64,000 nucleotides of DNA from a virus (lineage: Duplodnaviria > Heunggongvirae > Uroviricota > Caudoviricetes): positions 62,842 through 126,841 of IMG/VR virus record IMGVR_UViG_3300045973_000170; one strand, given 5' to 3'. Position numbers and translations under genes: made by a program. This document shows, one piece after another, positions 34,337-64,000 of this stretch. Under the pieces are notes generated by a model. It did no database searches. It saw only the letters and a list, made by a program, of their open reading frames with translations, and was not told where the DNA came from. Each line of letters starts with the position of its first letter. The stretch's first letter is position 1.

Positions 34337-34356
34337 CCCGCTATAGAAGCTCGCCA

Positions 34357-34426: not shown

Positions 34427-34433
34427 CAGTAGA

Positions 34434-34660: not shown

Positions 34661-34857
34661 GCTATGCGTCCTTCTTTGTATCATTTCTCATTTGAATTGC
34701 TTCTAACACCTGTTCAAACAATTCAGCGGTGAACTGTGAAACTGGAATTTCAGAACAACCCAAAATACCTTTTACACGATCACCAGTTTCTTGATATTCT
34801 TCAATCGTTGCCAATCTCATGTGATTCTCCATGGTTGTATTTATGCAAGTGCCGCCT

Positions 34858-34930
34858 CAGGGGATCGAACCCTATTCTCGCCCTCTTCAGGGGCGCGTTA
34901 TCACCAGACCTACGCAAGCGGCGTGTTGTT
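34858..34930 (-). tRNA. tRNA-Phe(GAA)
   Basis: AC arm CGCCC-CTGAAGA-GGGCG. Confidence 0.65.
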
Positions 34931-35279
34931 GGTAGCCTGATCAAGGCAGGGGTGTCTAATTCTATCGCACCGGATTCAGTTGTGAGCGTTCATGACAACC
35001 CCACTCCCTATCCATTAGCTCAAAAAGAACCGATCTGAGTTAGTCAAGTTGTACCCAAACCATTTACCCTTTTCCCAACAAAGTGAAGGTGGTAGTCTGC
35101 CACAAACCCCGCTAAGAGAATGTGGGCAAACGGGGAACGGAACGGATAATGTAGCTATTGGCCTGTTGTTAGCGTTCATGGTACGAGCATACGTTCTGCC
35201 TCATCCAATCAGACACTATCAGCAATCCTAACTGCACGGCTATCGTATCTTCCCGTACAGTATTTCCTTTTCCCACCAG

Positions 35280-35355
35280 TAGCGAATGAGAGATTCGAAC
35301 TCTCATGGTGTCCTCATCCCGAATGAGGCGGCTTATCCTGTTAGCCCAATCCGCT
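35280..35355 (-). tRNA. tRNA-Pro(CGG)
   Basis: D-arm GGCTAACAGGATAAGCC, AC arm CCTCA-TTCGGGA-TGAGG, T-arm GAGAGTTCGAATCTCTC. Confidence 0.65.
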
Positions 35356-36330
35356 AGAATTTGTGAGGGGTTGAGAATACACCCATCGTGGCTGTCCTTT
35401 CAAGGGATTATGAACCAGTGTCCCCACCGATCTTTCCCCTCTTTTCCACTTCCGCGAGGAAGTTGACAACCGAAGCAGTTCTCTTTAAGGTCTGAACAGT
35501 ATGACCGTCATCTAGTGCTACTCAACCTTTTCTCTACCACCGACCTTGCGAGCCGTTCGGAGTCGCTAAACCCCTATGTGCGAGTCTGGATCGAAGATTG
35601 TCGGGCTTGGGGCCGTTCAATCTGCCCTCTTCCTTGCGGGAAGGCATTATGCCACTTTTGGCACTTAGACCGAGGAAGTCTTTCCTTTTTATATTCTCTT
35701 TATCTCAATTAAAGTGGGCTGTTAACCCTGAATGTGAACTTTGAGTGAAGTGCTTCCTCAGTTGTTCCAATAGCTTTTGGCTATCAGAATGCAACACTCC
35801 ACGGCTACCGTTCGCCTTGCTCTGGCTACTTGATCATGCTTCTGGATTTAGGGCGAAGCTATTGAGAATAGCACTTCGCTCAAACCTCATGACATTCACG
35901 GAAAGCCCTATGGTGCAACCCATCGGACAATCTTGCGTGTATCCGTTACCGATCCGTTTTCGAATAGTTGGTTGTGTGCAGTACCCGACACCACTCGTCA
36001 GTCTTCGTTACTTGCCTTCCCTTGCGGGGGCGTCAGCAACGCTTTCTTCTGCACCTACTCTTCAAACATATCTCCACCTTCTTAGGGATGAAGCGGGGAT
36101 GTTCGAATATCCCCTCAGTCGGACTTGTTTGGATGAACCAACCTTGCGGCTGGCGGGGGTTACAAAGATAAGCCCCTTTATGCACCTTACGATGCACTGC
36201 TCTTTGGGAGTCCAAACACCCCAATTTCCTACTTCTCAATCAGCCTCCACCATGTGGGAGTCCCGTCATCGCCTTGGTAAGCTTTACCTCACCAACTAGC
36301 TGGTAGGTTTCTCCCTCTGTTTCTGAAGGA
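35356..36330 (-). ncRNA. ~1 kb ORF-free structured RNA with co-linear islands of small-subunit rRNA similarity
   Basis: No minus-strand ORF. TTGACA-N17-TAGCTT promoter at 36335-36363. GNRA-type hairpins (CCCGCAAGGG, CGCAAG, CTTCGG). Minus-sense segments match universal 16S blocks in 16S order. Confidence 0.5.
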
Positions 36331-36334
36331 CAAC

Positions 36335-36363
36335 TCCTTCGAAACCATGAATGAAGCTAACAC
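36335..36363 (-). promoter_or_regulatory. sigma70-like promoter (TTGACA-17-TAGCTT) driving the rRNA-like ncRNA
   Basis: Motif on minus strand immediately upstream of ORF-free region. Confidence 0.45.
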
Positions 36364-36367
36364 CTTG

Positions 36368-36805
36368 TTAGTCTCTTGTCAAGCCCCTGAACGAATTTTG
36401 TTCCGAAGGAATCACATCAAATGAAGAAATCTCGTAGTCATCTTGTATTTCGTTGACACCTGTTTCTTCATTCAACTTCAAAGACCCAATCCCGCGAGGA
36501 ACAACCGTAAGGTCAAATCCATTTTCCAACATATCCTTAAGGACTTTCCCCTGCGGGGTGTCCAAGACTTCAATTTCTGCATCAACGATATCACCATCCC
36601 ATGAAAAGGATGTTACCATATGTGAAACGTTCTTAAGGTTGATTGTGGGGGTTTCCCCTACTCCCAACTCACCTAAGGCTCTCCTATCCTTAACATACTT
36701 CTCTTCGTATTCTTTGAGAGCCTTTTCAAAGACTGCCCGTGGATAGATACGATGGTTTAGATTTGGCTTATCTACCACCATTACTGGCCCGACAATGATT
36801 TTCAT
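36368..36805 (-). CDS. hypothetical protein
   Basis: 145-aa ORF. Confidence 0.45.
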   Translation of the reverse strand: MKIIVGPVMVVDKPNLNHRIYPRAVFEKALKEYEEKYVKDRRALGELGVGETPTINLKNVSHMVTSFSWDGDIVDAEIEVLDTPQGKVLKDMLENGFDLTVVPRGIGSLKLNEETGVNEIQDDYEISSFDVIPSEQNSFRGLTRD

Positions 36806-37299
36806 CGATCATCCTTTAGCAAGTCATTAAGAACATCCCACATTTTCAACACAGGATAGCTCGCCATCCCAATGGGCTGTCGAAGAGCCTCTTGAAACGC
36901 CACATGTTCATTGCGATACATGTCAATCTTTCCACCACTCTCTACGTTGGCGATACGGTCTGCCAACTTAATCATGATGGCATAAGTACCGTATTCAAGA
37001 ATCTTGGGATACTGAATCGCATGTTTCTCTTTGCGAGTCCCCGTCTTTGGATTCGTGACGGCCAACACCAAATCTGCAATGTGTGGGCCAAACTCCCATG
37101 CCAACTCGCCATACTCTGTGTCTGTGTCTTCCAACACATCGTGCAAGGCTCCCGCCGAAACAACAATATGCGGGGCGTTGAACTCATGAAGGATGCTCAC
37201 CACACATGCTAGATGCACCATGTACGGAACACCTTCCCCGTACTTTTGATCACCGTGTTTCACGGCGACATAATGCAATGCTTTTTGAATGACTCTCAC
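36802..37299 (-). CDS. HD-domain phosphohydrolase (SpoT/Mesh1-like ppGpp hydrolase fold)
   Basis: HGDQ ... HL ... GALHDVLEDT motif set. Confidence 0.6.
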   Translation of the reverse strand: MRVIQKALHYVAVKHGDQKYGEGVPYMVHLACVVSILHEFNAPHIVVSAGALHDVLEDTDTEYGELAWEFGPHIADLVLAVTNPKTGTRKEKHAIQYPKILEYGTYAIMIKLADRIANVESGGKIDMYRNEHVAFQEALRQPIGMASYPVLKMWDVLNDLLKDDR

Positions 37300-37315
37300 A
37301 ATACCTCCATGATTA

Positions 37316-37386
37316 GAAAGCGGGTGACGGGGATCGAACCCGTGATTTCATCCTTGGCAAGGATGCACATTACCACTCTGCTACAC
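37316..37386 (-). tRNA. tRNA-Gly(GCC)
   Basis: Acceptor GCGGGTG/CACCCGC, AC arm CATCC-TTGCCAA-GGATG. Confidence 0.7.
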
Positions 37387-37890
37387 CCGCAATAACTCTA
37401 CTGCTCTATCGACTGCACTCTTGAAACGCTTATCATAAAATGCAATTGCATTATGATCCTGCTTCTCCATCTTTTCTGACAACCACCCAAGAATCTGAAC
37501 CGTTTCTTCTTGACTCATCGGTGGTGGTGTTTCCTCTGATAACGCTTCCTGTATGATACTGATGATAGCACCCGACAAGTCTTCTGTCAAGCCCCCACCT
37601 TCAGATTTTATCTTCACGATGGACAACACCGACACAAAAGAGTGGCCATGTTCAGTATATCCCTTATGTGTCCTCTGTTGCAATTCACCCATTGATTCGG
37701 AAAATGGATCATCAAAATCAATGCCAAATTCAATTCCCAACTGAAAAATCATTTCAGCCTTAAGCTTGGTGTAGAATTCCGTAGTACTCTGCTTCTTCCT
37801 GAATAACACCATCAAAACGTCAGTGTTTACCACCGTTCGTATTTCAGCGGTGTTCTCATCAATCTGGCGAAGTACTACGGAACAGAACTC
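37387..37890 (-). CDS. hypothetical protein (start at MEFCSVV)
   Basis: Start taken as internal Met of ORF 37381-37986 to avoid overlap with GroES gene. Confidence 0.4.
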
Positions 37891-37892
37891 CA

Positions 37893-38186
37893 TTAGCGAT
37901 GGAACCCGAAGATGTTGCGCTCTGCAACGACCTTGAAATCCTTGCCATCCAAACGGATCGTTGACGCATGACCCTTGGCATACCACACGGTATCACCAAC
38001 CTTGCATAGCATCTCGCCACGCTGACCACCATCAAAGATATGACCGGGGCCAACTGCCACAACGGTACCACTGGTAATCTGACCACTTCCCGTTACGCTC
38101 TCTGGGAGAACCAAACCTGATGCGGTCACTGACTCTTCTGCTTTGGACGGACTGATGATAATGTTGTCGCCACATGGATTAAACAT
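37893..38186 (-). CDS. GroES-like co-chaperonin (Cpn10)
   Basis: LVLPE ... GTVVAVGPG ... VGDTV motifs. Confidence 0.6.
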   Translation of the reverse strand: MFNPCGDNIIISPSKAEESVTASGLVLPESVTGSGQITSGTVVAVGPGHIFDGGQRGEMLCKVGDTVWYAKGHASTIRLDGKDFKVVAERNIFGFHR

Positions 38187-38427
38187 CGCTCTTCCTCTCA
38201 AAAATGGATTGTATTGCATCAACCTTCAATTGTCCTACTGCTTCATCCAAAAGTCTCACGAATGAGTCTTTAGGAGAAATGCTTTCAAACACCGATTTGT
38301 CCATCATATCTTCAGGAGAAATTGCAACACTCAAAACGTAATATGGTCTGAATGTTTCAGAATCCATTATTCGCTTTATGTCCGTTTTGTACATGTGAAG
38401 CCTCACTATAGTGAATGATGAACTACA

Positions 38428-38502
38428 ACAGGCCGGAAGGGATTCGAACCCTTAAGTTTGACAGTTTTGGAGACTGTTGGCCTTCCTGATGGCCCTCCGA
38501 CC
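38428..38502 (-). tRNA. tRNA-Trp(CCA)
   Basis: D-arm GGCCATCAGGAAGGCC, AC arm ACAGT-CTCCAAA-ACTGT. Confidence 0.65.
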
Positions 38503-38507
38503 TATAA

Positions 38508-38579
38508 ATGCCCCCTACAAGAATTGAACTTGTTCTGTTAGTTTCGAAGACTAACGTGCTTTCCGGCACACTCAAGAGG
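38508..38579 (-). tRNA. tRNA-Arg(UCG)
   Basis: AC arm GTTAGT-CTTCGAA-ACTAAC, T-arm ACAAGTTCAATTCTTGT. Confidence 0.6.
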
Positions 38580-38656
38580 CTTGATGGTTGTGGTGGGGTG
38601 AGGCCCACTTTGATGTAATCGGTAGGTACATGCCTTGCCTACACAACCTATTTAGA

Positions 38657-38740
38657 TGGAGCGAGTGGGTGTCGAACCCACATTCCGGTAAGTCTCAGGG
38701 GGCTAGTAGATGTTCGAAGCACCCTCCCCTAAACCTCACC
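38657..38740 (-). tRNA. tRNA-like element, structure unresolved
   Basis: T-arm GTGGGTTCGACACCCAC; acceptor pairing incomplete. Confidence 0.3.
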
Positions 38741-39012
38741 ATTGCGTCACGATATCGCTTCTCTCTGTTTTCATGGTACCACTACTCACAGGCTTCAGCT
38801 ACCGCCCCGTAATCTTTTCTTGTAATTCTCGCCAATCCTTTTCACTTTCGAAAGAACCCTTTTGGATAGCTTCAGTCATCTTTTCCTGACACAGCTTGGC
38901 CAATGCAATACGTTCAAAAGTGTTTAATGGAATTTCCCTAATATCTTCTCTGGCACTAGGTGTTGGCGTTATGCCTACGCTGTTTGTCATATGATACTTC
39001 CTTAAAGTGTGA

Positions 39013-39086
39013 TAGCTCTCAGGGGAATCGAACCCCTCTCTACTGACTGAGAATCAGTTGTCCTTTACCGATAGACGAGAAAGCCG
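39013..39086 (-). tRNA. tRNA-Glu(CUC)
   Basis: AC arm ACTGA-TTCTCAG-TCAGT. Confidence 0.55.
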
Positions 39087-39193
39087 TGAGGCAGGGGTTC
39101 AGGTCGCTCCATCCTGAGTAGCCGTTCACCCGTCCGAAGAGGGTTAGCTGTGAAACGGGTTCAGGCACATGGCCCTCAATGCCCCGACCAAGT

Positions 39194-39270
39194 ACGGGTG
39201 GTTGGAATCGAACCAACGTGTCGCCTCCTACCCTTTCAATCGTTTATAAGACGCAGGGGATACACCCGCA
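39194..39270 (-). tRNA. atypical tRNA-like element (no D-arm; anticodon-like loop CTTATAA), paralog of 32851-32932
   Basis: Acceptor GCGGGTG/CACCCGT, T-arm GTTGGTTCGATTCCAAC, conserved 3' half GATTGAAAGGGTAGGAGGCGACACG. Confidence 0.35.
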
Positions 39271-39475
39271 AAATTCACTAATTGATATGAAAGGATGAGG
39301 GAAGCTTACCAAAAGCATCTGCCAACCAAGCCAGCGCACAAACCACCCACACAAACCATACCACTTTCTTTGTATCTGGGATGAAATAGATTACAGCACC
39401 ACCAATGAGCAACACAATCAACAATAGATACAATGTCATTTTTACCTTCTTTGAAGAGGTTGATCGTATTTATAC

Positions 39476-39552
39476 AGCGCGAGAGGGAGGATTCGAACCT
39501 TCCAAAGCTTCCTACTTTGTTCTAGACCGTTTCGGAGTCGCATACCCCAGAT
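39476..39552 (-). tRNA. tRNA-like element with degenerate acceptor
   Basis: T-loop TTCGAAT and AC-like hairpin CAAAG-TAGGAAG-CTTTG; acceptor pairs 4 of 7. Confidence 0.3.
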
Positions 39553-39600
39553 TAGTTGTCTGGTGACTTTATCCATTTGTCTACCCTCGCAATTCATACA

Positions 39601-39674
39601 TGCACCGCATGGGATTTGAACCCACATCGTGAAGCTTAAGAGGCTCCTGTAATTGCCGTTTATACTAACGGTGC
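39601..39674 (-). tRNA. tRNA-Lys(CUU)
   Basis: AC arm GGAGC-CTCTTAA-GCTTC. Confidence 0.6.
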
Positions 39675-39791
39675 GTTGGTGAAGCAATGACCAAGGGCGG
39701 TGACCTTGTCCTTAAGGATGCTGACACATTCCTATTGGATGGGGCTTGAGAACCTGTCAGAGTCCTTGTTCCCCTGAGACTTGCTTCTATT

Positions 39792-40202
39792 TTAGTAACT
39801 TTTTCCTTCTTTATATCGTTTCATTCTCCACGCTCTTCCATTGCCTTTATTCAAAGCTCTGAAATTTGATTGTAAAGAATGACAATTGGGACAAATGATT
39901 CTTCCATTTTCTGGTAAGTTGTTCTCACTGTTCCCATCAATATGATCTAATTCTGTTGGAACATTATTAGTAATAGGATTGCGTTCTTCCCATCCACACA
40001 ACATACATTGTTCTCCGTATTTGTCGATCAAATATCTTCTGAGCATTCTTGGAGTTAATGTTTTTTCATCAACTCTTTTTTGTCTCTGATATTCTTGTTG
40101 ACACTTCCCAGAACAATACAACCCCTTATTAACTTTTGAACACGAAAATTCTGTTTCACAATTCAAACATATTACCACTTTCTTTGGATTTGTCCACGCC
40201 AT
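39792..40202 (-). CDS. HNH homing-endonuclease-like protein
   Basis: ELDHIDGNSENNLPENGRIICPNCH HNH motif plus N-terminal Cys-rich zinc ribbon; AT-rich relative to neighbours. Confidence 0.6.
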   Translation of the reverse strand: MAWTNPKKVVICLNCETEFSCSKVNKGLYCSGKCQQEYQRQKRVDEKTLTPRMLRRYLIDKYGEQCMLCGWEERNPITNNVPTELDHIDGNSENNLPENGRIICPNCHSLQSNFRALNKGNGRAWRMKRYKEGKSY

Positions 40203-40259
40203 ATAATCTCCTTTTGAGTTAACGACACTATCTGTATTTATACATGTCGTAAACTCTAG

Positions 40260-40332
40260 AGCTAACGGTGGGATTCGAACCCACGGCGTCTAAATTACAA
40301 GTTTAGAGCATTGACCGCTATGCTACGTTAGC
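40260..40332 (-). tRNA. tRNA-Thr(UGU)
   Basis: Acceptor GCTAACG/CGTTAGC, AC arm CTAAA-CTTGTAA-TTTAG. Confidence 0.7.
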
Positions 40333-40495
40333 AAGATGATCATAAAGAAACTCTACGTTATTGCGACATAGTTTGAGAATTGATGTTGATTCATTGTACT
40401 CCCTTGAGAATGAGTTCGCATTTCTTCTCTCAGGTCTAGCCGAATCTCTCCTATTCTTTAGATCAAATCGTCACGGGAGCTTATCTCCGCAACAG

Positions 40496-40575
40496 TAATC
40501 GCAATGGGGGTCGAACCCATATTAACCCCGCGAAGGGGGCTGTCCTGCCCTTAGACGATGCGTTTCGGCTATACG
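40496..40575 (-). tRNA. tRNA-like, extended D region
   Basis: T-arm ATGGGTTCGACCCCCAT, acceptor AATCGTA/TGCGATT; internal hairpin GCCCC-CTTCGCG-GGGGT. Confidence 0.3.
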
Positions 40576-40667
40576 ATTAGGATTGCAGTCCCTTTCTAAA
40601 CCGTGTCTTACTTCCTTTTCATGAACCCTGCAAGGAACATTCAAAGAAGCCCAACAGTAGCCCCAAT

Positions 40668-40739
40668 GGGAGTCGAACCCATCTTCTCACCTTGAAAGGG
40701 TGGTGAACTAGCCGATATTCGATGAGGCCAAATTTTACA
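40668..40739 (-). tRNA. tRNA-Glu(UUC)
   Basis: AC arm CACC-CTTTCAA-GGTG. Confidence 0.6.
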
Positions 40740-40742
40740 ACA

Positions 40743-40816
40743 TAGCAGTGACGAGATTCGAACTCGCGTTACTCAGATTGAAGGTCTGGTTTACTAGGCC
40801 ACTATAAGACACTGCC
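40743..40816 (-). tRNA. second tRNA with UUC anticodon (C at position 33)
   Basis: AC arm CAGA-CCTTCAA-TCTG. Confidence 0.45.
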
Positions 40817-40900
40817 AAACTTGAAATCTGCGACAATATTAATGACCTTTGTTCTTACCTCTTGGAACGGTCAGGCAAGCGACAGATTTCTTTACTACAG

Positions 40901-40974
40901 TGCGCCCACAGAGAATCGAACTCTGGTCTGAGGGTTAAAAGCCCCCTGCTACTGCCAATTGAGCTATAAGCGCA
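40901..40974 (-). tRNA. tRNA-Lys(UUU)
   Basis: AC arm GGGGG-CTTTTAA-CCCTC, T-arm CAGAGTTCGATTCTCTG. Confidence 0.65.
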
Positions 40975-41159
40975 TAATGCTTAGAAGATGTACGGTCTTC
41001 CTTCCCGCTGTTTCACAAGCCCACCACAAGCCTTTACGCGAGGCCATGGCCAATCCCGATTATCTCTTGCGATCAAGCTACGGCACGTTGAGCATTGCAA
41101 CGCTGTCAAATGAAGCAAATGTCCGGTGTCCTGACCGCTAGACGAACGAGAGGCGTGAA

Positions 41160-41242
41160 CCAATCGTACAGGATTCGAACCTGTGTTTCCAGAGCTTCCG
41201 GTTGAATAGGCTCTTACCTTTCGGTATTGTAGGCGTCCGATC
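41160..41242 (-). tRNA. tRNA-like, structure unresolved
   Basis: T-arm ACAGGTTCGAATCCTGT; acceptor only 4 bp. Confidence 0.3.
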
Positions 41243-41275
41243 AACGCCTCGTTACTTCCTATTCCAAGTTTTATG

Positions 41276-41363
41276 CAGTGCGGATAGAGAGATTCGAACT
41301 CTCAAGACCGATAAAGGTCTACAGGTTCCTAAGACCTGCGCGTACTTCCATTCCCACCATACC
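41276..41363 (-). tRNA. tRNA-Leu(UAG)
   Basis: AC arm CAGGT-CTTAGGA-ACCTG plus long variable arm. Confidence 0.65.
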
Positions 41364-41581
41364 CGCATAAACTACCATAATCATCATCAGTTGTCAATTA
41401 GCACTCTTTCAATCTAACCCCTTACACTCTTGTTGTCAAGGGGTACTTCAATCTTCTCAGTGGGACTTGAACCCACAAACCTCCATAGATGGCAATCTAC
41501 TTTGGTACCGGATTCAGGTGTGTTGCCACACACCCTTGGCCAGCGTGTTTCCCATTTTCACCATAAGAAAACTCTTCGTAA

Positions 41582-41669
41582 CGGATAGTGAAGGATTCGA
41601 ACCCTCGTCACCCTTTCGGGGTGTGCTAGTTTTCAAGACTAGTGCGATAGACCACTCTGCCAACTATCC
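41582..41669 (-). tRNA. tRNA-Ser(UGA)
   Basis: Perfect acceptor GGATAGT/ACTATCC, AC arm CTAGT-CTTGAAA-ACTAG, long variable arm. Confidence 0.7.
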
Positions 41670-41838
41670 ATTTTTGGTCGATCACCCATGCCAACGTGTG
41701 ATCGCTTGCGTCAGTAACGTATCCTTACAGAATGAAGTGTATTCCATTTCGCCAGAGACATTGTCCCCTGAATGGCTACTTTGCATCATCACTCACGCGC
41801 TTCCCCTTACGGGGTCAGGCTGGTGTACTGAACCAAAG

Positions 41839-41916
41839 TGGTCGATGTAGGATTCGAACCTACGATCATAAGCCTGTGTGTAGGACAGGTGCCTTGGGCC
41901 TCTGGGCGAATCGACC
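41839..41916 (-). tRNA. tRNA-Val(UAC)
   Basis: Perfect acceptor GGTCGAT/ATCGACC, AC arm CCTGT-CCTACAC-ACAGG. Confidence 0.65.
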
Positions 41917-56222: not shown

Positions 56223-56873
56223 TTAGGTTGGTGAAGGAGTTGGTGAAGGTGTCTCTGACGGCGTGATTGACGGGGTCACTGACGGCGTGATTGACGGGGT
56301 CACTGACGGGGTACGAGTGATTGTCGGTGTTACTGACGGGGTGAAACTCACTGACGGTGTTTCTGACGGCGTCACAGACGGTGTTACTGACTGGGTGTAC
56401 CCAATGCTGGTACTCGGCGTCAATGACGGTGTTGGTGTCGGTGTTACTGACCGTGTGGGCGTTGGGCTATGTGACCAACCAATGCTTGCACTCGGTGTTG
56501 AAGTTGGTGTTACTGACGGTGACCAACCAATGCTGGTACTTGGTGTCACTGACGGGGTGATTGATGGCGTCACGGAAGGTGTGACCGTAACCGAAGGTGT
56601 AATCGACGGTGTTGGGGTTACACTCCACGAAACGTTCGGGAAAATAGGATCATCACCACTACCTTCAGTGGGTGCTTCCTTCATGGCAATAAGTGTCTCG
56701 TAACGCACACGGCTGTTGCCAGCGTTATCGACGTTTGCTAGACGATAGACCCAACCAATGTGCTGTGGGCCGGGAGTCCATTTGATTTCCTCCCCATCTA
56801 CGCCGTAAACATCGTCTGCGTTCTTGACAGCGGGTTCAATATTTGGCCGCTGAGTTCTGCTCCAACCTGACAT
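56223..56873 (-). CDS. protein with N-terminal globular domain and Ser/Val/Thr/Pro tandem repeats
   Basis: SVTP/SITP repeats encoded by 12-nt periodic DNA repeats. Confidence 0.5.
   Translation of the reverse strand: MSGWSRTQRPNIEPAVKNADDVYGVDGEEIKWTPGPQHIGWVYRLANVDNAGNSRVRYETLIAMKEAPTEGSGDDPIFPNVSWSVTPTPSITPSVTVTPSVTPSITPSVTPSTSIGWSPSVTPTSTPSASIGWSHSPTPTRSVTPTPTPSLTPSTSIGYTQSVTPSVTPSETPSVSFTPSVTPTITRTPSVTPSITPSVTPSITPSETPSPTPSPT
56258..56305. repeat. exact 24-bp tandem duplication inside broader 12-bp periodic repeat tract (56230-56700)
   Basis: gacggcgtgattgacggggtcact occurs twice back to back. Confidence 0.6.
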
Positions 56874-56897: not shown

Positions 56898-59579
56898 TTA
56901 TGCGCTATCTTTGGGCAACTTCGACCAACCACCCTTGGGTGTCTTGGCCAATTCATCTTTTGCCGCATCAATTGCCGACTGTGCTTTGTCGGCTCGCGCC
57001 TTTTTCTCTGCCCTGTAGCGAATTTGCTCCGGGGTCAAACTTCCGTCATCTGCTTGTGATTCCTTTGATTTTCTAATCTTGTCGTAGACCTTTTCCTTGT
57101 AGTCCTCATCCGACACAGATTCGCTTTGTACAAGACTCATGAACAGCTTTGTCATTTCCTCATCCAAGTCAGAAATATTCTTGACCTCAAACAATTCAAG
57201 GGTCTTGTTAAAACGAACTTCAAAATCTTCCTTTCGTACACGCTTCTTTGAATTCACATCTGAAACATCTGACGCATCATCGATATCTTTGAACCATGAA
57301 GTCTTTGAAGGCTTCACAACCTTCTTTGGTGTATCGTGAACAGTCTTTGTGACAGGGGTGTGTAGACGATTAATAGCGTGTGATGTACCCTTTGTTCTTT
57401 TCTGTACCTTCTTGATTGAACTATCTACCCCACGCTGATTACCTTTCATCGCATGTGTAGCATAGTTCAACAAATGATCATCACGATCCTGCAATGAATG
57501 AGCGATATACTTAACGTAGGTATCCTTATGCAACTCATCGATTTCAACTTCTTCCTTGACTGCACTCTTAACATGGGCCTTGATTTTTGCCATAGCAGTA
57601 TCAACACCCTTCTCTCTGTTGTCCAGCTTCCGTGCCTTGTTGGGATCAATGTCATCCCGATCATACTTCAAACCTTTACCCCGTTTCCAATTCCGAAGGG
57701 ACTCAGCTTCATCGCGCTTTGCAAAATCGGCTGACGCCTTCTTGACATAGGAACCAAGTACCTTCTTCAACTCATCCAACTGCTCTTCGGTCAAGACCAC
57801 GTTCTCTTCGGCCAAAATGTCAGCCAAGTCAAGATAAGAAGGATCAAAGCTACTAGTAATGCCGTTGGTTGTTCCAGCACCGAAGTACTTACGACGGCGC
57901 AATTCATTACGCGCCTTGGACGCAATCTTACGATCATTGACACTCACCTTTCCACCATGACTTTTCTTATTCTTGACCATACCAGCCAAGGTCTGCAACA
58001 TGCCTTGTGGGGTCTTGCGATAGTTTACATCTTCGTCAAGCACTTCCCCATTCATAACCATGTCCATATTCAGCTTGAGTTGTTCTGCCTTTCCGGTGGG
58101 CATGGGCTTATCCTTTTTTGGTGCTGGTGTCTGCCTTCCGTCAAAATCCTTCTGGGCTTTGGCGATGGCTGAAATCTTGTTTGTGGGATTAGTCCTATTC
58201 CAAAGGTCTTGTGACTTCTTGATCAATGGGTTATCAGATACACGGCGACCTTCCTCAGGAATGAATTCATCCTTGATAGCACGGACTCTTTCAGTTGATG
58301 CCATTTTGAAATCCTTTGGTTGCTTGGGGCCACCCGGACGAGAACCAATTTCTATTTTTCTCGGCGCATGAGAAGGAATTTTCGGTGTCTTTCCACCCAA
58401 CGGTGTATGAACAGCATTCATGGTATCAATCATATTCTGAAAGAAGCCCTCATTTTTTGGTGTGAGTGCATCTTCCTTCTTCTTCCAAAGTGCCGCTTGA
58501 AAATCCTTCTTGCGCTGAACGCTATCCTTCTTGGTCATCTTGACTTGCTTGCCAGATGCCATATCGTATCGATACTGATTGTCGCGGCCTTCTGTTACCT
58601 TAACTTCAGAATTTGCCTTGTCAGCAATCTCTTTGCTCTTGGTCTTATTGTGCTTTGACTCTTCATCATCATAGGGGTTTGGACGGGTAAGCTTGCCGCC
58701 CTTCAACCAGTGAGGTTGCTTCTTGACGGTGCCTGACTTGATATCTGTTTCTGTACAATTCTCATGAATCTCAACATCATGAGCAAGAGTACGAGCCTTA
58801 TCGCCTGTCTCGGTCTTGTTGCGTACTGATCCCTTATCCTCATAAGGATTTGGGCGTTCCAACTTCTTTCCCTTCAACCAACGGGGCTGTTGAGGTACCG
58901 TTCCAACTGTCTCTTCATTGGCAATTTCCTTCTTTGCACCCTGTCTATCCTTATGGGCGGCAAGCTTCTTTGATTCCTTTCCCGCCTTTACCCAACCCCC
59001 AAGTCTCTTAGAACCATATTCCTTCGTTCTCTTTCCACCACGATCCTTGTAGGTCTTCCCTTCTTCAAGCTCAACCTCTTCCTTCCTCAACTTTTCTCTC
59101 GCCAAATTTTGTCCATGTTTTCTATTTGCAAACTTCTTCACATCTGGTTGCGCCTTTTTTGGGTCACTCTCTTTCTCCAATCTATCCCAAATTTCGTCTG
59201 AAGACTTTTGAGAATGAGTTAGATATGTTTTGAGTGTAGGCTTACGCAACTCGTCCAACTGTTCCTGTTCAGCCATGTCGGTTTCCTCTGGCATGTATCG
59301 GTTACTGACTGAATCATTACGATTCGCGGCAACCTTGTTTCGAATCAAGCGATAGATTCCTGCCTCTCCCAAACCCAATTCTAGCAATTCTTCAATGAAT
59401 TCGTAGAAAGGCTTTCGGATGATCAATGGAAGGAACGCATCAGTCTGTATGAGCTTCAAAGCTCGCTTGATATACGGGAGTTTGGCCACAGGCATCATAC
59501 CCAAGCGTACCAATTGTTCGGCTTTTCCCGACCAATCGTGTACTTCGTTAAGTTCTTCTTGGGTAAGGTTATAGGACAT
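56898..59579 (-). CDS. large Lys-rich protein (893 aa) with internal ~27-aa repeat
   Basis: QPRWLKGKKLERPNPYEDKGSVRNKT and KQPHWLKGGKLTRPNPYDDEESKHNKT repeats. Confidence 0.5.
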   Translation of the reverse strand: MSYNLTQEELNEVHDWSGKAEQLVRLGMMPVAKLPYIKRALKLIQTDAFLPLIIRKPFYEFIEELLELGLGEAGIYRLIRNKVAANRNDSVSNRYMPEETDMAEQEQLDELRKPTLKTYLTHSQKSSDEIWDRLEKESDPKKAQPDVKKFANRKHGQNLAREKLRKEEVELEEGKTYKDRGGKRTKEYGSKRLGGWVKAGKESKKLAAHKDRQGAKKEIANEETVGTVPQQPRWLKGKKLERPNPYEDKGSVRNKTETGDKARTLAHDVEIHENCTETDIKSGTVKKQPHWLKGGKLTRPNPYDDEESKHNKTKSKEIADKANSEVKVTEGRDNQYRYDMASGKQVKMTKKDSVQRKKDFQAALWKKKEDALTPKNEGFFQNMIDTMNAVHTPLGGKTPKIPSHAPRKIEIGSRPGGPKQPKDFKMASTERVRAIKDEFIPEEGRRVSDNPLIKKSQDLWNRTNPTNKISAIAKAQKDFDGRQTPAPKKDKPMPTGKAEQLKLNMDMVMNGEVLDEDVNYRKTPQGMLQTLAGMVKNKKSHGGKVSVNDRKIASKARNELRRRKYFGAGTTNGITSSFDPSYLDLADILAEENVVLTEEQLDELKKVLGSYVKKASADFAKRDEAESLRNWKRGKGLKYDRDDIDPNKARKLDNREKGVDTAMAKIKAHVKSAVKEEVEIDELHKDTYVKYIAHSLQDRDDHLLNYATHAMKGNQRGVDSSIKKVQKRTKGTSHAINRLHTPVTKTVHDTPKKVVKPSKTSWFKDIDDASDVSDVNSKKRVRKEDFEVRFNKTLELFEVKNISDLDEEMTKLFMSLVQSESVSDEDYKEKVYDKIRKSKESQADDGSLTPEQIRYRAEKKARADKAQSAIDAAKDELAKTPKGGWSKLPKDSA

Positions 59580-61411: not shown

Positions 61412-61627
61412 TTTGAGTTACCAGAATAAGGTGAAGATGAGGTTCAGATATTGAATAGGCTAATCGCCGGATTTCCTGTAACAACTCAGGTTGTTTGTAG
61501 GTATATCATCCCTCGTCTGCATTGGTATTTATGGATTGGAAAAAGCCAAAAACATGGGGACGTTACCAGATCGGCAACGTCCCCACAGCCCTTTCTACAC
61601 TTATGGTCGGTAGATGGGTACTCCTAT

Positions 61628-63073
61628 TTATGCCCTCGCTCTGGCCCTCACTTCGGCATAATCATAGAACATCTTGAACTGCCCATCCTTCCACACAGTC
61701 TTCAACTCAGACTGTTCAAGCTCATCCACCGTGGCCTGATTCTTCAGATAAAGATTACCATCCTTATCCCTGAGAACAGCCAACATACCCTTGGCCGATT
61801 CCTTCATACCATTGTCAGTGATCGGCTTCTTGAACATGTCAATTGGCGTTCCATTGATTTCACAATGGGTGGCCTTCATCGCCATGTTATAGGTGTCACG
61901 GGTGACGTACTGATAGGTGAAGCTACCCATGCCGAAGACCATGTTGGCCGAAGCAAACCCGTTCTCTTCCAACCCCTCAAGGATAGCATTGAGGCGTTCA
62001 ATGTTGATCGAATCGCCGTAGATGCAACCAATGTGGCTGTCCAGAAGCTTGTAACCACGCGAGGTTGTGGTGCCGCCGAAGACTTCCCAAAGCAACTGAA
62101 TGACTCCCTTGTACGCAGGACTCATGTACGGCGCATCCTTGTCACCACAAATGATCTTGACAGGATCGCCAGAGTCAGGACGAATGACCATCTTTCCATT
62201 GCGATTCAGGATTTCCCTCTTCAGCGAAGGAAGAATTTCCGTCAACAGTCTCCACAAGTCCCATGTATCAGAGACATAAGAGAAGATTCCTTCCGGATAC
62301 AAGTCAATCAAACGACTGACCGTTTCCCGTTCCCCACCTTCCCCACCAGCACACACCACTGAATGCTCTGTTGCAGCAACCGATCCCGCAATAAACGTTT
62401 CTGTTGGGTAGTATTCCTCAATCAGGTCGATGGCAGGAATGGTATCGGTACCCGTGAAGAATAACAGGTGACCAGCACCGCTAATCATTGCGGCCTCAAG
62501 CCCCGGCATACCACGGAAGCTGAAGTCATGACCCTGCCAATCCACAAACTCCTTGGGTGAACCCGTGCGCTCTGCGTACTGATCCAGCACACGCCGGAAC
62601 TGTGACGCTGTGGTGGCTGACGTTGTCGGCATCCACAAGACGTTGGACAGAAGGGTTTCAAAGTAGTTGGTAAGCCAAAAGAATTCCGGCACAGTGTTCA
62701 CCACGGTAAACATAGGAACTCTCAAGGGGACATGCGTACCCTCAGGAAGTGCCTTGAATTCCAACGGGAGATACCCAAGGTTGTGCAAGGCGCGAATGTG
62801 ATCGGTACCGATGGTGTTAGGGCCAAGATAGCCGTTCACTCGACGGGCATACTTCTCACAGACCTTCTCTACATTCTGTTCGAAGAACCCCCTATTGAAC
62901 TCTTCCATCAGATACTTCTTGAGAAAGTACTGAAGACCAAAGAACACAACATGAGTCTCACCCTTTACGCGACTTCCACGGGGTGTCAGGTTGCTGTAGA
63001 CGCTTTCTGTACCCTGAGGATACTGGCGTCGGTGATCCAGCTTGTAGCCATCAATTGCGGTAGAAATGTTCAT
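61628..63073 (-). CDS. nadV: nicotinamide phosphoribosyltransferase (NadV/NAMPT); start at MNISTAIDGY
   Basis: MNISTAIDGYKLDHRRQYPQGT N-terminus and overall NAMPT-like length. Confidence 0.7.
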   Translation of the reverse strand: MNISTAIDGYKLDHRRQYPQGTESVYSNLTPRGSRVKGETHVVFFGLQYFLKKYLMEEFNRGFFEQNVEKVCEKYARRVNGYLGPNTIGTDHIRALHNLGYLPLEFKALPEGTHVPLRVPMFTVVNTVPEFFWLTNYFETLLSNVLWMPTTSATTASQFRRVLDQYAERTGSPKEFVDWQGHDFSFRGMPGLEAAMISGAGHLLFFTGTDTIPAIDLIEEYYPTETFIAGSVAATEHSVVCAGGEGGERETVSRLIDLYPEGIFSYVSDTWDLWRLLTEILPSLKREILNRNGKMVIRPDSGDPVKIICGDKDAPYMSPAYKGVIQLLWEVFGGTTTSRGYKLLDSHIGCIYGDSINIERLNAILEGLEENGFASANMVFGMGSFTYQYVTRDTYNMAMKATHCEINGTPIDMFKKPITDNGMKESAKGMLAVLRDKDGNLYLKNQATVDELEQSELKTVWKDGQFKMFYDYAEVRARARA

Positions 63074-63975
63074 AGTTGTACCCCCATAAAGTAGTTGCAA
63101 ACGTTGATTGTCTTCACTGTCCATGGCTCCATTTCTTTGGTGCCAACCACTGAATCCGTTGAAATGATGTTCTTGAAGTAAATCTTCAACGACTCCAATC
63201 CCTTGGTAAACAAACCATGGGTTACATACAAACTCAATTCAACATCAGGTGAAATCTTATTGATTTTGTCGGCCAACCCAATGAAGGTGCCGCCACCATC
63301 ACAAATGTCATCCACAATAAGGAAATGACCCTTGGAAGGAAGATCGTGAATCCAGAAATCGGTAATCTTGCCTGTCTTCGTTTCACGGGTCTTTCCACCC
63401 ACAAAGAGAGGGAGTCCAAGATGCTTGGCTACACCCATGGCTCGCTTTGTAGCTCCCGAATCAGGAGCAATGACGCCTGTGAATTCTCCTTCAAGTTCGT
63501 ACATTGGAAGAGTAGAATTCGCCGCTAGGATGCTCTTTTTCTCTGCATTGAAAATCTGTGCTGGTGACACCGCCACACAGCGATCAATCAAACCAGAGAT
63601 AACGTCTGAATGAGGATCAAAGATAGTGACCGAAGGGAAGTTTCTGGCGTTGATCATCTTCGCCACAGACTTGGCTGTGAAGAGAAAATCCCCACCACCT
63701 TCCATCTGGCGATCCTGTCTTGCCCCCGGAACAAAGGGAAGGATCAATTCAGGCACATCCCCATATCGATCCGCAAAGGCATCCACGAAGAACATGGCAC
63801 CCACGAATTGATTCATGGTTGCAGGACGAACGAGAAGCTTTCGGCCCCCATTCTTTATTCCATTCGTGAACACAATCTGCGATGGGGCAAACCGAATAAG
63901 GGGTTCCCCACTTGGGTACTCAGCGAAATCGATGATCGTAATACCGCCACCATCACGATAGATGATATTGCTCAT
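63070..63975 (-). CDS. prs: ribose-phosphate pyrophosphokinase (PRPP synthetase)
   Basis: PRPP-binding loop HFLIVDDICDGGGT; Prs-like N-terminus; ATGA overlap with nadV. Confidence 0.65.
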   Translation of the reverse strand: MSNIIYRDGGGITIIDFAEYPSGEPLIRFAPSQIVFTNGIKNGGRKLLVRPATMNQFVGAMFFVDAFADRYGDVPELILPFVPGARQDRQMEGGGDFLFTAKSVAKMINARNFPSVTIFDPHSDVISGLIDRCVAVSPAQIFNAEKKSILAANSTLPMYELEGEFTGVIAPDSGATKRAMGVAKHLGLPLFVGGKTRETKTGKITDFWIHDLPSKGHFLIVDDICDGGGTFIGLADKINKISPDVELSLYVTHGLFTKGLESLKIYFKNIISTDSVVGTKEMEPWTVKTINVCNYFMGVQL

Positions 63976-64000
63976 TTAGGATACCGGAAGAGTTTCGTGG

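What the first reader, a model, noticed from the sequence alone, without database searches (positions are those of the whole stretch)
61628..63975. NAD+ salvage pair: NadV (NAMPT) translationally coupled to PRPP synthetase
- nadV and prs overlap by ATGA.
- Phage-encoded NAMPT pathways regenerate NAD+ and counter NAD+-depleting defence systems.
- Pairing with Prs to supply PRPP, rather than an NMN adenylyltransferase in this window, is notable.
- A YbiA/NADAR-family gene (24876-25331) also sits in this window.
Basis: partly seen in the sequence, partly recalled or inferred. Interest (0 to 1): 0.6.

Follow-up and report, generated by a model that had tools for sequence, protein, structure and literature searches.

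The report
Phage NARP1 NAD+ rebuilding gene pair
The two overlapping genes are a typical copy of NARP1, a known phage pathway that rebuilds NAD+ directly from ADP-ribose and nicotinamide after bacterial defences destroy it, and not a PRPP-supplying salvage pair, so the locus is real but ordinary.

Summary
Both genes are real, lie on the minus strand, and overlap by ATGA. They are a Prs-like ORF (63070-63975, 301 aa) followed by a NAMPT-like ORF (61628-63073, 481 aa).

In phages this pairing is NARP1. Adps pyrophosphorylates ADP-ribose to ADPR-PP, and Namat joins ADPR-PP to nicotinamide to give NAD+ directly. No NMN adenylyltransferase is needed.

- **Namat:** the second protein's best solved relative is SPbetaL1 Namat (519 bits, against 254 for human NAMPT). 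It keeps every catalytic residue. It also carries the Namat-specific adenine clamp (GSFTYQYVTRD, Arg35), which NARP2-type phage Nampt and human NAMPT lack.
- **Adps:** the first protein fails every curated PRPS model. It scores 263 bits on an HMM of Namat-linked viral Adps, against 135 for E. coli Prs. It keeps the catalytic Lys (K195), the KxRxxxTGxI hairpin and the DDICDGG loop.
- **Synteny:** of 80 viral loci encoding a relative of this Adps, 77 also encode a Namat homologue, and in 76 it lies downstream on the same strand.
- **Selection and operon end:** both genes are under purifying selection (dN/dS about 0.1). A strong terminator follows namat.

Verdict: a new, moderately divergent member of a known system, in an uncultivated T4-like phage. 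Interest is low.

The parts
63070..63975 (-). adps: ADPR-pyrophosphate synthetase, Prs-like, 301 aa; first gene of the pair
   Evidence: ORF. Pfam gives only a weak PF00156 match. All 11 NCBIfam PRPS models score below their cut-offs (best is TIGR01251, 83 bits against a cut-off of 113). It scores 263 bits on an HMM built from 81 Namat-adjacent or validated Adps with the window left out; E. coli Prs scores 135 on the same HMM. It is 32-36% identical to validated Adps of ICP1, SPbetaL1 and a Bas63-like phage, and 25% identical to E. coli Prs. dN/dS is 0.10 against the orthologue in L011.
63364..63393 (-). Adps catalytic beta-hairpin KTRETKTGKI, with catalytic Lys195 at 63391-63393
   Evidence: K195 aligns with SPbetaL1 K162 and ICP1 K185. 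Mutating either of those abolishes activity (papers read; alignment). The motif K.R..[TS]G.[ILV] is present in 72 of 81 Adps and absent from E. coli Prs. Coordinates were checked.
63286..63312 (-). Adps PP loop DDICDGGGT, the donor-pyrophosphate and distal-ribose binding loop
   Evidence: It aligns with ICP1 D212-S220 (DDICDGAAS) and with bumzen DDICDGGRT. E. coli Prs has DDMIDTGGT at this position. D222, D223, C225, D226 and F231 are invariant in the 12-sequence Adps alignment A1. DDICDGG occurs in at least 50 of 81 Adps.
63070..63073 (-). ATGA overlap of the adps stop codon and the namat start codon
   Evidence: The same 4-nt overlap occurs in the related phage L011. SPbetaL1 has a 1-nt overlap.
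63081..63085 (-). GGGGG Shine-Dalgarno-like run 7 nt upstream of the namat ATG, inside the end of adps
61628..63073 (-). namat: nicotinamide ADP-ribose transferase, NAMPT-like, 481 aa; second gene
   Evidence: Pfam PF18127 plus PF04095. The best solved relatives are 9W5X and 9W5W, which are SPbetaL1 Namat (E = 8e-155, 519 bits). Human and mouse NAMPT score about 254 bits and Xanthomonas Nampt 237 bits. It is 52% identical to SPbetaL1 Namat, 51% to FADO Namat and 46% to ICP1 Namat. It is 31-32% identical to NARP2-type phage Nampt. dN/dS is 0.095.
61895..61927 (-). Namat selectivity-clamp helix motif GSFTYQYVTRD (G383-D393); the aromatic residues stack on the adenine of ADPR-PP/NAD+
   Evidence: It fits the published Namat signature GSX-phi-X-phi-X-phi-TRD with aromatic X (PMC12774641). 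SPbetaL1 has GSFTYQYNTRD. Human NAMPT has GSGGGLLQKLTRD. Phage Nampt with no Adps in the fetched 3-kb flanks have GGGLLQQSDRD or GGGLLQMVNRD. Among 75 viral Namat encoded in the same locus as an Adps, position 3 is aromatic in 73 and position 5 in all 75.
62969..62971 (-). Namat selectivity-clamp loop residue Arg35, equivalent to SPbetaL1 Arg40
   Evidence: Alignment. The loop has the Namat length. It is 4 residues shorter in NARP2-type Nampt. The R40A/F392G double mutant of SPbetaL1 Namat loses ADPR-PP-dependent NAD+ synthesis but keeps NMN synthesis.
62180..62365 (-). Namat catalytic core: His237 (62363-62365, the phosphorylatable histidine) and Arg298/Asp300 (62180-62182 is Arg298, equivalent to SPbetaL1 R306)
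   Evidence: All NAM- and ribose-phosphate-contacting residues of SPbetaL1 Namat are conserved: D8, Y10, F184, S185, R187, D210, A234, H237, R298, D300, G353, D354, G383, S384, T391, R392 and D393. R306G or R306A abolishes activity in SPbetaL1.
61540..61586 (-). Intrinsic terminator that closes the operon: GC-rich hairpin at 61554-61586, then GTTTTTGGCTTTTT
   Evidence: The pattern scan found a 16-pair stem followed by a T-run 41 nt after the namat stop (L001 12389-12423). The fold gives -37 kcal/mol for the 95-nt stretch, z = -4.3, with 0 of 200 shuffles folding as well. Coordinates were checked.

Best explanation
The locus is a NARP1 (NAD+ reconstitution pathway 1) operon of an uncultivated T4-like phage.

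**How it works.** NAD+-depleting defences with SIR2, TIR or SEFIR effectors split NAD+ into ADP-ribose and nicotinamide. The first enzyme, Adps, has a Prs-like fold. It transfers the beta,gamma-pyrophosphate of ATP onto the 1'' hydroxyl of the terminal ribose of ADP-ribose, giving ADPR-PP and AMP. The second enzyme, Namat, has a NAMPT-like fold. It displaces that pyrophosphate with nicotinamide and regenerates NAD+ in a single step.

The cost is one ATP per NAD+. The pathway needs no PRPP, no NMN intermediate and no NMN adenylyltransferase.

The two genes are co-transcribed and translationally coupled through ATGA plus an internal SD, and transcription ends at a strong intrinsic terminator.

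**Shown here:** gene structure, family membership by sequence, by motif and by synteny, purifying selection, and the terminator.

**Inferred from characterised homologues (SPbetaL1, Bas63, FADO, ICP1, DyoEdafos):** the two chemical reactions and the anti-defence role.
For: **(1) Namat identity**
- The top PDB hits are the SPbetaL1 Namat structures 9W5X and 9W5W at 519 bits. Any Nampt scores 227-258 bits.
- All catalytic residues and all adenine-clamp residues are conserved.
- The clamp motif GSFTYQYVTRD and Arg35 are present. Human NAMPT lacks the clamp motif. Two phage Nampt with no Adps in the fetched 3-kb flanks lack both features.

**(2) Adps identity**
- K195 aligns with the essential Lys of SPbetaL1 (K162) and ICP1 (K185).
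- The ADPR-contacting residues R86, H122, D172, D222, D223 and D226 are conserved.
- Scores discriminate in both directions. The window protein scores 263 bits on the Adps HMM and 83 on TIGR01251. E. coli Prs scores 135 and 423.
- The validated ICP1 Adps is likewise below the PRPS cut-off, at 98 bits.
- The C-terminal alpha11-alpha12 segment of PRPS is missing.

**(3) Synteny**
- 77 of 80 IMG/VR loci with a relative of this Adps also encode a Namat homologue. In 76 it lies downstream on the same strand.
- Two of the three exceptions are cut about 1.2 kb after adps.
- This matches the published 97% association.
- The same adps-namat order and overlap occur in the closest relatives.

**(4) Both genes are maintained:** dN/dS is about 0.10.

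**(5) No NMNAT or Nudix** appears anywhere in the window annotation. NARP1 is expected to lack these, whereas a Nampt-based route would need them.
Against: - No biochemistry exists for this particular pair.
- The Adps is divergent. It is 30-36% identical to any validated enzyme and at most 48% identical to anything outside a handful of close relatives.
- The adenine-stacking residues of ICP1 Adps (F18, F92) are not conserved here (I14, M91). They are not conserved in the Bas63-like enzyme either.
- The PP loop DGGGT resembles PRPS DTGGT, so residual PRPP synthesis cannot be excluded from sequence.
- phrog_619 does not separate Adps from true Prs; E. coli Prs scores 193 bits on it. That hit carries no weight.
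- Only one canonical Prs sequence was used as a direct control.
- Namat enzymes retain some NMN-forming activity with PRPP in vitro.
Confidence: 0.9

Rival explanations
1. A genuine PRPP synthetase supplies PRPP to a genuine nicotinamide phosphoribosyltransferase (NadV). The product is NMN, and a host NMN adenylyltransferase or deamidase route finishes NAD+ synthesis.
For: Generic annotations point this way: PF04095 and PF18127, NCBIfam PRK09198 above its cut-off, and the PHROG names 'ribose-phosphate pyrophosphokinase' and 'nicotinamide phosphoribosyl transferase'. Namat enzymes can make NMN from PRPP in vitro when no ADPR-PP is offered.
Against: - The Prs-like protein fails all 11 curated PRPS models. 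It groups with Adps in both scoring directions.
- The NAMPT-like protein carries the adenine clamp that true Nampt lack.
- It is twice as close in bit score to Namat as to any Nampt.
- For this gene family, SPbetaL1 Adps gave no measurable product other than with ADPR. Bas63 counter-defence was independent of host pncC and nadR.
- Phages that use the Nampt route carry their own Nmnat in 94% of cases. None is present in this window.
Confidence: 0.04
2. The chemistry is the same (Adps plus Namat), but the main role is metabolic housekeeping rather than counter-defence. The pair would recycle ADP-ribose and nicotinamide released by ordinary NAD+ turnover, or by ADP-ribosylation cycles during infection. 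NADAR-type hydrolases could be one source of free ADP-ribose.
For: - A NADAR gene and a YAcAr/SLOG gene sit in the same genome.
- Bacterial NARP1 homologues of unclear role exist.
- RyDEP and Adpp show that other enzymes can feed ADP-ribose into NARP1.
Against: - In Bas63, ADPR-PP appeared only when a defence system was active.
- NARP1 is almost restricted to phages.
- NADAR lies 36 kb away with no operon link.
- No ADP-ribosyltransferase was seen in the window.
- Free ADP-ribose is scarce unless an NADase is active (inference).
Confidence: 0.05
3. The genes are decaying or inactive remnants that have no function in this phage.
For: None, beyond the divergence of Adps from characterised enzymes.
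Against: Both reading frames are intact. All catalytic residues are kept. dN/dS is about 0.1 at dS of about 0.8-1.1 against a related phage. The coupling and the terminator are conserved.
Confidence: 0.01

Closest known systems
NARP1 (Adps + Namat) of Bacillus phage SPbetaL1, coliphage Bas63 (JohannRWettstein), Bacillus phage FADO, Vibrio phage ICP1 and Mycobacterium phage DyoEdafos
   Same: - It has the same two-gene order (adps then namat), on the same strand and tightly coupled.
- The Adps catalytic Lys, the hairpin and the acceptor-site Asp/His/Arg residues are the same.
- The Namat catalytic core is the same, as are both halves of the adenine selectivity clamp.
- No NMNAT is present.
   Different: - The sequences are divergent. 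Adps is 30-36% identical and Namat 42-52% identical to the validated enzymes.
- This Adps belongs to an environmental subgroup with a longer N-domain segment (about residues 55-75), a 9-residue insertion near residue 135 and a short C-terminal extension. These features are shared by its nearest metagenomic relatives.
- The host genome is an uncultivated T4-like phage. The cultured T4-like phages sampled here carry the other type instead.
NARP2 (Nampt + bifunctional Nmnat) of Vibrio phage KVP40 and relatives
   Same: It is a phage-encoded NAD+ reconstitution pathway built around a NAMPT-fold enzyme, and it counters the same defences.
   Different: NARP2 Nampt prefers PRPP, forms a separate clade and co-occurs with a phage Nmnat, with no Adps. 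The window protein is only 31-32% identical to two such phage Nampt. Those two have GGGLLQ in place of the aromatic clamp and a shorter clamp loop. The window has an Adps and no Nmnat.
Cellular Prs (PRPP synthetase) plus NadV/NAMPT salvage
   Same: The folds are the same, and so is the pyrophosphoryl-transfer and phosphoribosyl-transfer chemistry.
   Different: Adps uses ADP-ribose instead of ribose-5-phosphate as acceptor. Namat uses ADPR-PP instead of PRPP as donor. The window Adps lacks the PRPS C-terminal alpha11-alpha12 module and scores far below the PRPS family cut-offs.
Extended NARP1 operons: NARP1-AP (with the Macro-domain phosphatase Adpp) and NARP1 with the RyR-domain glycosidase RyDEP
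   Same: The core Adps-Namat pair is the same.
   Different: No Macro or RyR gene lies between or beside the two genes here. The genes overlap, so nothing is inserted. The three small upstream ORFs have no such domains. They are conserved only in the closest relatives. This predicts that the phage cannot use ADPR-1''-phosphate (from aRES) or cyclic ADPR signals as input.

Membership tests
NARP1 - Namat (nicotinamide ADPR-transferase) | Closer to experimentally characterised Namat than to any Nampt | tested here: met
   SPbetaL1 Namat (9W5X/9W5W) scores 519 bits. Human and mouse NAMPT score 250-258 bits and Xanthomonas Nampt 227-237 bits. By BLASTP the protein scores 476, 475 and 397 bits against SPbetaL1, FADO and ICP1 Namat. 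It scores 211 and 185 bits against two phage Nampt with no Adps in the fetched flanks.
NARP1 - Namat (nicotinamide ADPR-transferase) | Selectivity-clamp helix signature GSX-phi-X-phi-X-phi-TRD, with aromatic X at positions 3 and 7 | tested here: met
   GSFTYQYVTRD at residues 383-393. The controls lack it: GSGGGLLQKLTRD in human NAMPT, and GGGLLQQSDRD and GGGLLQMVNRD in phage Nampt.
NARP1 - Namat (nicotinamide ADPR-transferase) | Selectivity-clamp loop of Namat length carrying an Arg, Lys or Tyr stacking residue | tested here: met
   Arg35 aligns with SPbetaL1 Arg40. The loop is 4 residues longer than in NARP2-type Nampt.
NARP1 - Namat (nicotinamide ADPR-transferase) | Intact Nampt-like catalytic core: the phosphorylatable His, the R306 equivalent, the D215 equivalent and the F189/Y15 nicotinamide sandwich | tested here: met
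   H237, R298, D210, F184 and Y10 are all conserved.
NARP1 - Namat (nicotinamide ADPR-transferase) | Prefers ADPR-PP over PRPP and forms NAD+ directly | not testable with these tools
   This needs enzymology. It is inferred from SPbetaL1 Namat.
NARP1 - Adps (ADPR-PP synthetase) | Belongs to the phage Adps clade, separate from cellular Prs | tested here: met
   It is below the cut-off of all 11 NCBIfam PRPS models. On the Adps HMM it scores 263 bits and E. coli Prs scores 135. On TIGR01251 it scores 83 and E. coli Prs scores 423. Limitation: no full phylogeny with many cellular Prs was built.
NARP1 - Adps (ADPR-PP synthetase) | Catalytic Lys on the beta-hairpin (SPbetaL1 K162, ICP1 K185) | tested here: met
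   K195 within KTRETKTGKI.
NARP1 - Adps (ADPR-PP synthetase) | Conserved acceptor and PP-loop residues (ICP1 R87, H121, D161, D212, D213, D216; PP loop DDICD...) | tested here: met
   R86, H122, D172, D222, D223 and D226, with DDICDGGGT as the loop.
NARP1 - Adps (ADPR-PP synthetase) | Adenine-stacking residues of ICP1 Adps (F18, F92) | tested here: not met
   The window protein has I14 and M91. The Bas63-like Adps also lacks them (H17, M102). They are therefore features of ICP1 and do not define the family.
NARP1 - Adps (ADPR-PP synthetase) | Loss of the PRPS C-terminal alpha11-alpha12 regulatory and filament module | tested here: met
   The segment aligned to E. coli Prs '[24 protein letters not shown]' is missing from the window protein and from all four reference Adps. 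This rests on alignment only; no structure was predicted.
NARP1 - Adps (ADPR-PP synthetase) | Pyrophosphorylates ADP-ribose and not ribose-5-phosphate | not testable with these tools
   Inferred from the SPbetaL1 and ICP1 enzymes.
NARP1 operon | adps and namat adjacent (published: 97% of the Adps clade), with adps first | tested here: met
   In the window the genes overlap by 4 nt with adps upstream. Of 80 related viral loci, 77 also encode a Namat homologue, and in 76 it lies downstream on the same strand.
NARP2 (Nampt + Nmnat) | A phage Nmnat is present and the Nampt lacks the adenine clamp | tested here: not met
   No cytidylyltransferase/NMNAT or Nudix family is on record for any gene of the window. 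The clamp is present.
Canonical PRPP synthetase (Prs) | Reaches the curated family score of TIGR01251 or the PRK PRPS models | tested here: not met
   The best score is 83.4 bits against a cut-off of 113. The other models give 28-68 bits against cut-offs of 296-536.
NARP1-AP / RyDEP-extended NARP1 | A Macro-domain phosphatase (Adpp) or RyR-domain glycosidase (PF02026) inside or beside the operon | tested here: not met
   Nothing is inserted between the two genes. The flanking ORFs have no Macro or RyR hit in Pfam or PHROGs.

The most novel reading that the evidence does not exclude
The window's Adps belongs to a poorly sampled environmental subgroup. It is at most 48% identical to anything outside a few close relatives. 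It carries its own N-domain insertion and C-terminal extension, and it lacks the adenine-stacking residues seen in the ICP1 structure.

The evidence does not exclude a shifted acceptor range for this subgroup. It might accept 2'-phospho-ADP-ribose and so rebuild NADP+, or it might accept other ADPR derivatives. The evidence also does not exclude cooperation with the phage's distant NADAR or YAcAr genes, which could act as feeder enzymes that release ADP-ribose, as RyDEP and Adpp do in other phages.
Probability: 0.05. Interest if true: 0.5.

Novelty: new member of a known kind. Interest (0 to 1): 0.15.

Why it matters
Little is new in principle. NARP1 was described in 2024, occurs in about 4% of sequenced phages, and now has structures for both enzymes.

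The value of the locus is practical.

- **Annotation.** It is a clean example of the annotation trap. Pipelines still call these genes ribose-phosphate pyrophosphokinase and nicotinamide phosphoribosyltransferase, and this leads to a wrong pathway with PRPP, NMN and a 'missing' NMNAT. Three features re-label such pairs reliably: the clamp motif GS[FY]x[YF]Q[YFH]xTRD, the Adps hairpin KxRxxxTGxI, and adjacency.
- **Distribution.** It extends NARP1 to an uncultivated T4-like lineage. The cultured T4-like phages checked here carry the NARP2-type enzyme instead.
- **Predicted phenotype.** The phage should escape SIR2-, TIR- and SEFIR-type NAD+ depletion. It should remain sensitive to aRES, whose product is ADPR-1''-phosphate, because it has no Adpp phosphatase.

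Tried and rejected
- **PHROG membership as evidence for Adps: rejected.** E. coli Prs scores 193 bits on phrog_619, nearly the same as the window protein at 209.
- **The ATGA overlap as evidence of a functional pair: rejected as weak.** Such overlaps are common in this genome.
- **A third operon gene: rejected as a conserved accessory.** The 122-aa membrane protein abutting adps upstream, and the 78-aa and 224-aa ORFs before it, have no informative Pfam or PHROG hit. Only the 224-aa ORF gave a sub-threshold SprT-like match. All three are found only in the two closest relatives and in none of the 80 viral loci that carry Adps.
- **Macro/Adpp, RyR/RyDEP, NMNAT, Nudix, PnuC or NadR in the window: none on record**.
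- **Nucleotide search against GenBank phages:** only a 57-nt patch in a mycobacteriophage Namat gene, so there is no close cultured relative.
- **PDB entry 9KE8/9KEO (418 bits, motif GAQTYQRNTRD): not identified.** No paper in the library cites it. It is not from a phage in the collection; the best match is 58% identity to SPbetaL1 Namat.
- **Guessing the Bas63 accession failed** (one search returned Bas27). I used the Felixounavirus phage bumzen, chosen as a relative of Bas63 from my own knowledge of their taxonomy. SPbetaL1, FADO and ICP1 were fetched directly.
- **A neighbour-joining tree of all Namat sequences timed out**. I replaced it with pairwise scores and motif comparison.
- **Structure prediction was not run.** Both folds are already clear from sequence, and fold matches would not separate Adps from PRPS.


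Full report
**What is in the sequence**

Both genes lie on the minus strand. The Prs-like ORF runs from 63975 to 63070 (301 aa). The NAMPT-like ORF ends at 61628.

The longest version of the second ORF begins at 63124, but the real start is the ATG at 63073.
- From that start the protein matches NAMPT_N and NCBIfam PRK09198 from residue 2.
- An independent assembly calls the same 481-aa product.
- The orthologue in a related phage starts at the same place.
- A GGGGG run sits 7 nt upstream.

With that start, the stop of gene 1 and the start of gene 2 form ATGA at 63070-63073.

The overlap is not remarkable on its own. At least 13 of 103 neighbouring minus-strand ORF pairs in this window overlap by 4 nt or 1 nt. 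The ORF upstream of the Prs-like gene abuts it as TAAATG.

A strong hairpin lies 41 nt after the stop of the second gene and is followed by GTTTTTGGCTTTTT. The scan found a 16-pair stem. The fold energy is -37 kcal/mol for the 95-nt stretch, z = -4.3, and 0 of 200 shuffles fold as well. This closes the transcription unit at about 61540-61586.

**Genomic setting**

The window has no close relative among GenBank phages. The same proteins occur on Logan contigs from one sample, and the Prs-like protein is also on record on a 126.8-kb JGI contig.

The neighbours show that this is a T4-like phage.
- Upstream, beyond the window end: clamp loader, RegA, family-B DNA polymerase, UvsX and a gp41-type helicase.
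- Downstream: a GH19 endolysin.
- Elsewhere in the window: primase, RNase H, ATP-dependent DNA ligase, endonuclease VII, class II RNR, ThyX, prohead protease and Cpn10.

**What the pair is**

Generic libraries give the naive names: NAPRTase/NAMPT_N for one protein, and a weak PRTase match with the PHROG name 'ribose-phosphate pyrophosphokinase' for the other.

This exact pairing in phages was studied by Osterman et al. (bioRxiv 10.1101/2024.02.11.579819).
- Bas63 still overcame SIR2-HerA in a host lacking pncC and nadR.
- A new metabolite, ADPR-pyrophosphate, appeared in infected cells.
- The purified Prs-like enzyme of SPbetaL1 pyrophosphorylated ADP-ribose and gave no measurable product otherwise.
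- The NAMPT-like enzyme joined ADPR-PP to nicotinamide to give NAD+, and it preferred ADPR-PP over PRPP.

The pathway is called NARP1 and its enzymes are Adps and Namat. Structures followed for Namat (PMC12774641) and for Adps (PMC13586617).

**Test of Namat membership**
- The best solved relatives of the window protein are 9W5X and 9W5W (E = 8e-155, 519 bits). The Namat paper identifies these as SPbetaL1 Namat.
- Human and mouse NAMPT reach about 254 bits. Xanthomonas Nampt reaches 237 bits.
- All residues that contact nicotinamide, the NMN ribose-phosphate and the AMP moiety in SPbetaL1 Namat are conserved. These include the phosphorylatable His (H237) and R298, the equivalent of R306.
- The decisive feature is the adenine 'selectivity clamp'. 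The published signature GSX-phi-X-phi-X-phi-TRD with aromatic X reads GSFTYQYVTRD here. The loop residue Arg40 is Arg35 here.

I checked the discriminating power of that motif independently.
- Among 75 viral Namat homologues encoded in the same locus as an Adps relative, position 3 is aromatic in 73, position 5 in all 75, and position 7 is Y, F or H in 63.
- Two phage Nampt with no Adps in the fetched 3-kb flanks have GGGLLQQSDRD and GGGLLQMVNRD, like human GGGLLQKLTRD. They come from a large (253-kb) Vibrio phage, D481, and from the T4-like Aeromonas phage 44RR2.8t. Both also have a clamp loop 4 residues shorter.
- The window protein is 46-52% identical to the Namat of SPbetaL1, FADO and ICP1. 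It is 31-32% identical to those two Nampt.

**Test of Adps membership**
- The window protein is below the curated cut-off of all eleven NCBIfam PRPS models. The best is TIGR01251 at 83 bits against a cut-off of 113.
- For calibration on TIGR01251, E. coli Prs scores 423, the biochemically validated ICP1 Adps scores 98, and the Adps of phage bumzen, used as a stand-in for Bas63, scores 136.
- I built an HMM from 77 viral Adps encoded in the same locus as a Namat plus four reference Adps, leaving the window protein out. The window protein scores 263 bits on it, and E. coli Prs scores 135.
- K195 aligns with the essential Lys of SPbetaL1 (K162) and ICP1 (K185). It sits in a hairpin motif, KxRxxxTGxI, that E. 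coli Prs lacks.
- The acceptor-site residues (R86, H122, D172, D222, D223, D226) and the DDICDGG loop are conserved.
- The PRPS C-terminal alpha11-alpha12 segment is missing.

Two cautions apply.
- phrog_619 does not discriminate, because E. coli Prs scores 193 bits on it.
- The adenine-stacking Phe residues of ICP1 Adps are not conserved here. They are not conserved in the bumzen enzyme either.

**Synteny and selection**
- Of 80 IMG/VR loci that encode a relative of this Adps, 77 also encode a Namat homologue. In 76 it lies downstream on the same strand. Two of the three exceptions end about 1.2 kb after adps.
- The closest relatives (83-85% identical Adps) have the same order and the same 4-nt overlap.
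- Against that relative, dN/dS is 0.10 for adps and 0.095 for namat, with dS of about 0.8-1.1. Both genes are under purifying selection.

**Accessory genes**

Some phages extend NARP1 with a Macro-domain phosphatase, Adpp, which lets them use the ADPR-1''-phosphate made by aRES. Others add a RyR-domain glycosidase, RyDEP, which opens cyclic ADPR signals.

Neither is present here.
- Nothing is inserted between the two genes.
- The three ORFs upstream (224, 78 and 122 aa) have no such domain. The 122-aa ORF has a hydrophobic N-terminal segment that reads as a single membrane helix.
- These ORFs are conserved only in the two closest relatives.
- No NMNAT, Nudix, PnuC or NadR gene is on record for any gene in the window. 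NARP1 does not need an NMNAT, so this fits.

**Mechanism, and what is shown against what is inferred**

Shown here: two intact, coupled and selected genes with the family-specific residues of Adps and Namat, in the canonical order, ending at a terminator.

Inferred from characterised homologues: Adps transfers the beta,gamma-pyrophosphate of ATP to the 1'' position of ADP-ribose. Namat then replaces it with nicotinamide to regenerate NAD+. This neutralises defences that cleave NAD+ to ADP-ribose and nicotinamide.

A prediction follows. The phage should resist SIR2-, TIR- and SEFIR-based NAD+ depletion but not aRES.

**Verdict**

The 'notable' pairing is the hallmark of a pathway described in 2024. 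This is a new, moderately divergent member of a known system, and interest is low.

The only open angle is whether this divergent Adps subgroup has a shifted substrate range, or whether it cooperates with the phage's distant NADAR and YAcAr genes. Nothing found here supports either idea.

Noticed in passing
window 22432-41916 (minus strand): ARAGORN finds 38 tRNA genes spread over about 20 kb and interleaved with small ORFs. Together they read codons for all 20 amino acids. This is a very large tRNA set for a T4-like phage of about 127 kb.
   Followed up: partly
window 24876-28627: A loose cluster of nucleotide- and ADP-ribose-related genes is interspersed with tRNAs: NADAR (24876-25331, PF08719, 1e-27), RNase_T exonuclease (25668-26222), metallophosphatase (26422-27099), YAcAr/SLOG (27289-27663, PF10686, 5e-14) and radical SAM (27647-28627). 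It lies 33-36 kb from the NARP1 pair, and no link was found.
   Followed up: partly
L001 9632-10000 (just beyond the window end; its last 25 nt are window 63976-64000): A 122-aa ORF with a hydrophobic N-terminal segment (read by eye as one membrane helix) and a Lys-rich tail ends in TAA directly before the adps ATG. In the related phage it overlaps adps by 4 nt. It has no Pfam or PHROG hit. It occurs only in the two closest relatives and in none of the 80 other viral loci that carry Adps.
   Followed up: yes
L001 9101-9129 (outside the window, upstream of the operon): A near-consensus sigma-70-type promoter match, TTGACA-17-TACAAT (11 of 12), lies about 900 nt upstream of adps. It could drive early transcription of the small ORFs plus adps-namat. 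The total number of promoter-like hits in the region is no higher than in shuffles.
   Followed up: no
window 56898-59579 and 56223-56873: An 893-aa, very Lys/Glu-rich protein carries an internal repeat (QP[RH]WLKG.KL.RPNPY...) and has no Pfam family. Next to it is a 216-aa protein made largely of TPS[VI]TPS repeats.
   Followed up: no
window 3261-3761 and 3761-4288: Two adjacent paralogous ORFs of 166 and 175 aa share ...HSIVDVITNSSSV[LI]YTEAH... and overlap by 1 nt. Neither has a Pfam hit.
   Followed up: no
window 1089-1586 and 2184-3002: A 165-aa ORF with a sub-threshold phosphoribosyltransferase match (PF00156, 18 bits; motif IIIDDLISSGQT) lies beside a radical SAM gene. It is a second PRTase-fold protein in the window, of unknown role.
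   Followed up: partly
phage records H88 (Vibrio phage D481) and H96 (Aeromonas phage 44RR2.8t); hit list: tblastn hits of the window's Namat in GenBank phages fall into two groups. One has at least 36% identity and about 300 bits or more; its fetched members (ICP1, SPbetaL1, FADO, bumzen) have an adjacent Adps. The other has 28-35% identity and 140-260 bits; its two fetched members have a clamp-less motif and no Adps in the flanks. The cultured T4-like phages in the list are in the second group, whereas this T4-like phage is in the first.
   Followed up: partly
PHROG profile phrog_12872 (547 positions): The Adps-like proteins match the N-terminal part of this profile, up to about position 225. 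The Namat-like proteins match its C-terminal part, about 365-536. This suggests that fused Adps-Namat proteins exist in some phages.
   Followed up: no
window 61451-62362 (+ strand): A 303-aa ORF lies antisense inside namat. It is most likely a chance ORF, because homology, selection and gene calls all support the minus-strand frame.
   Followed up: partly
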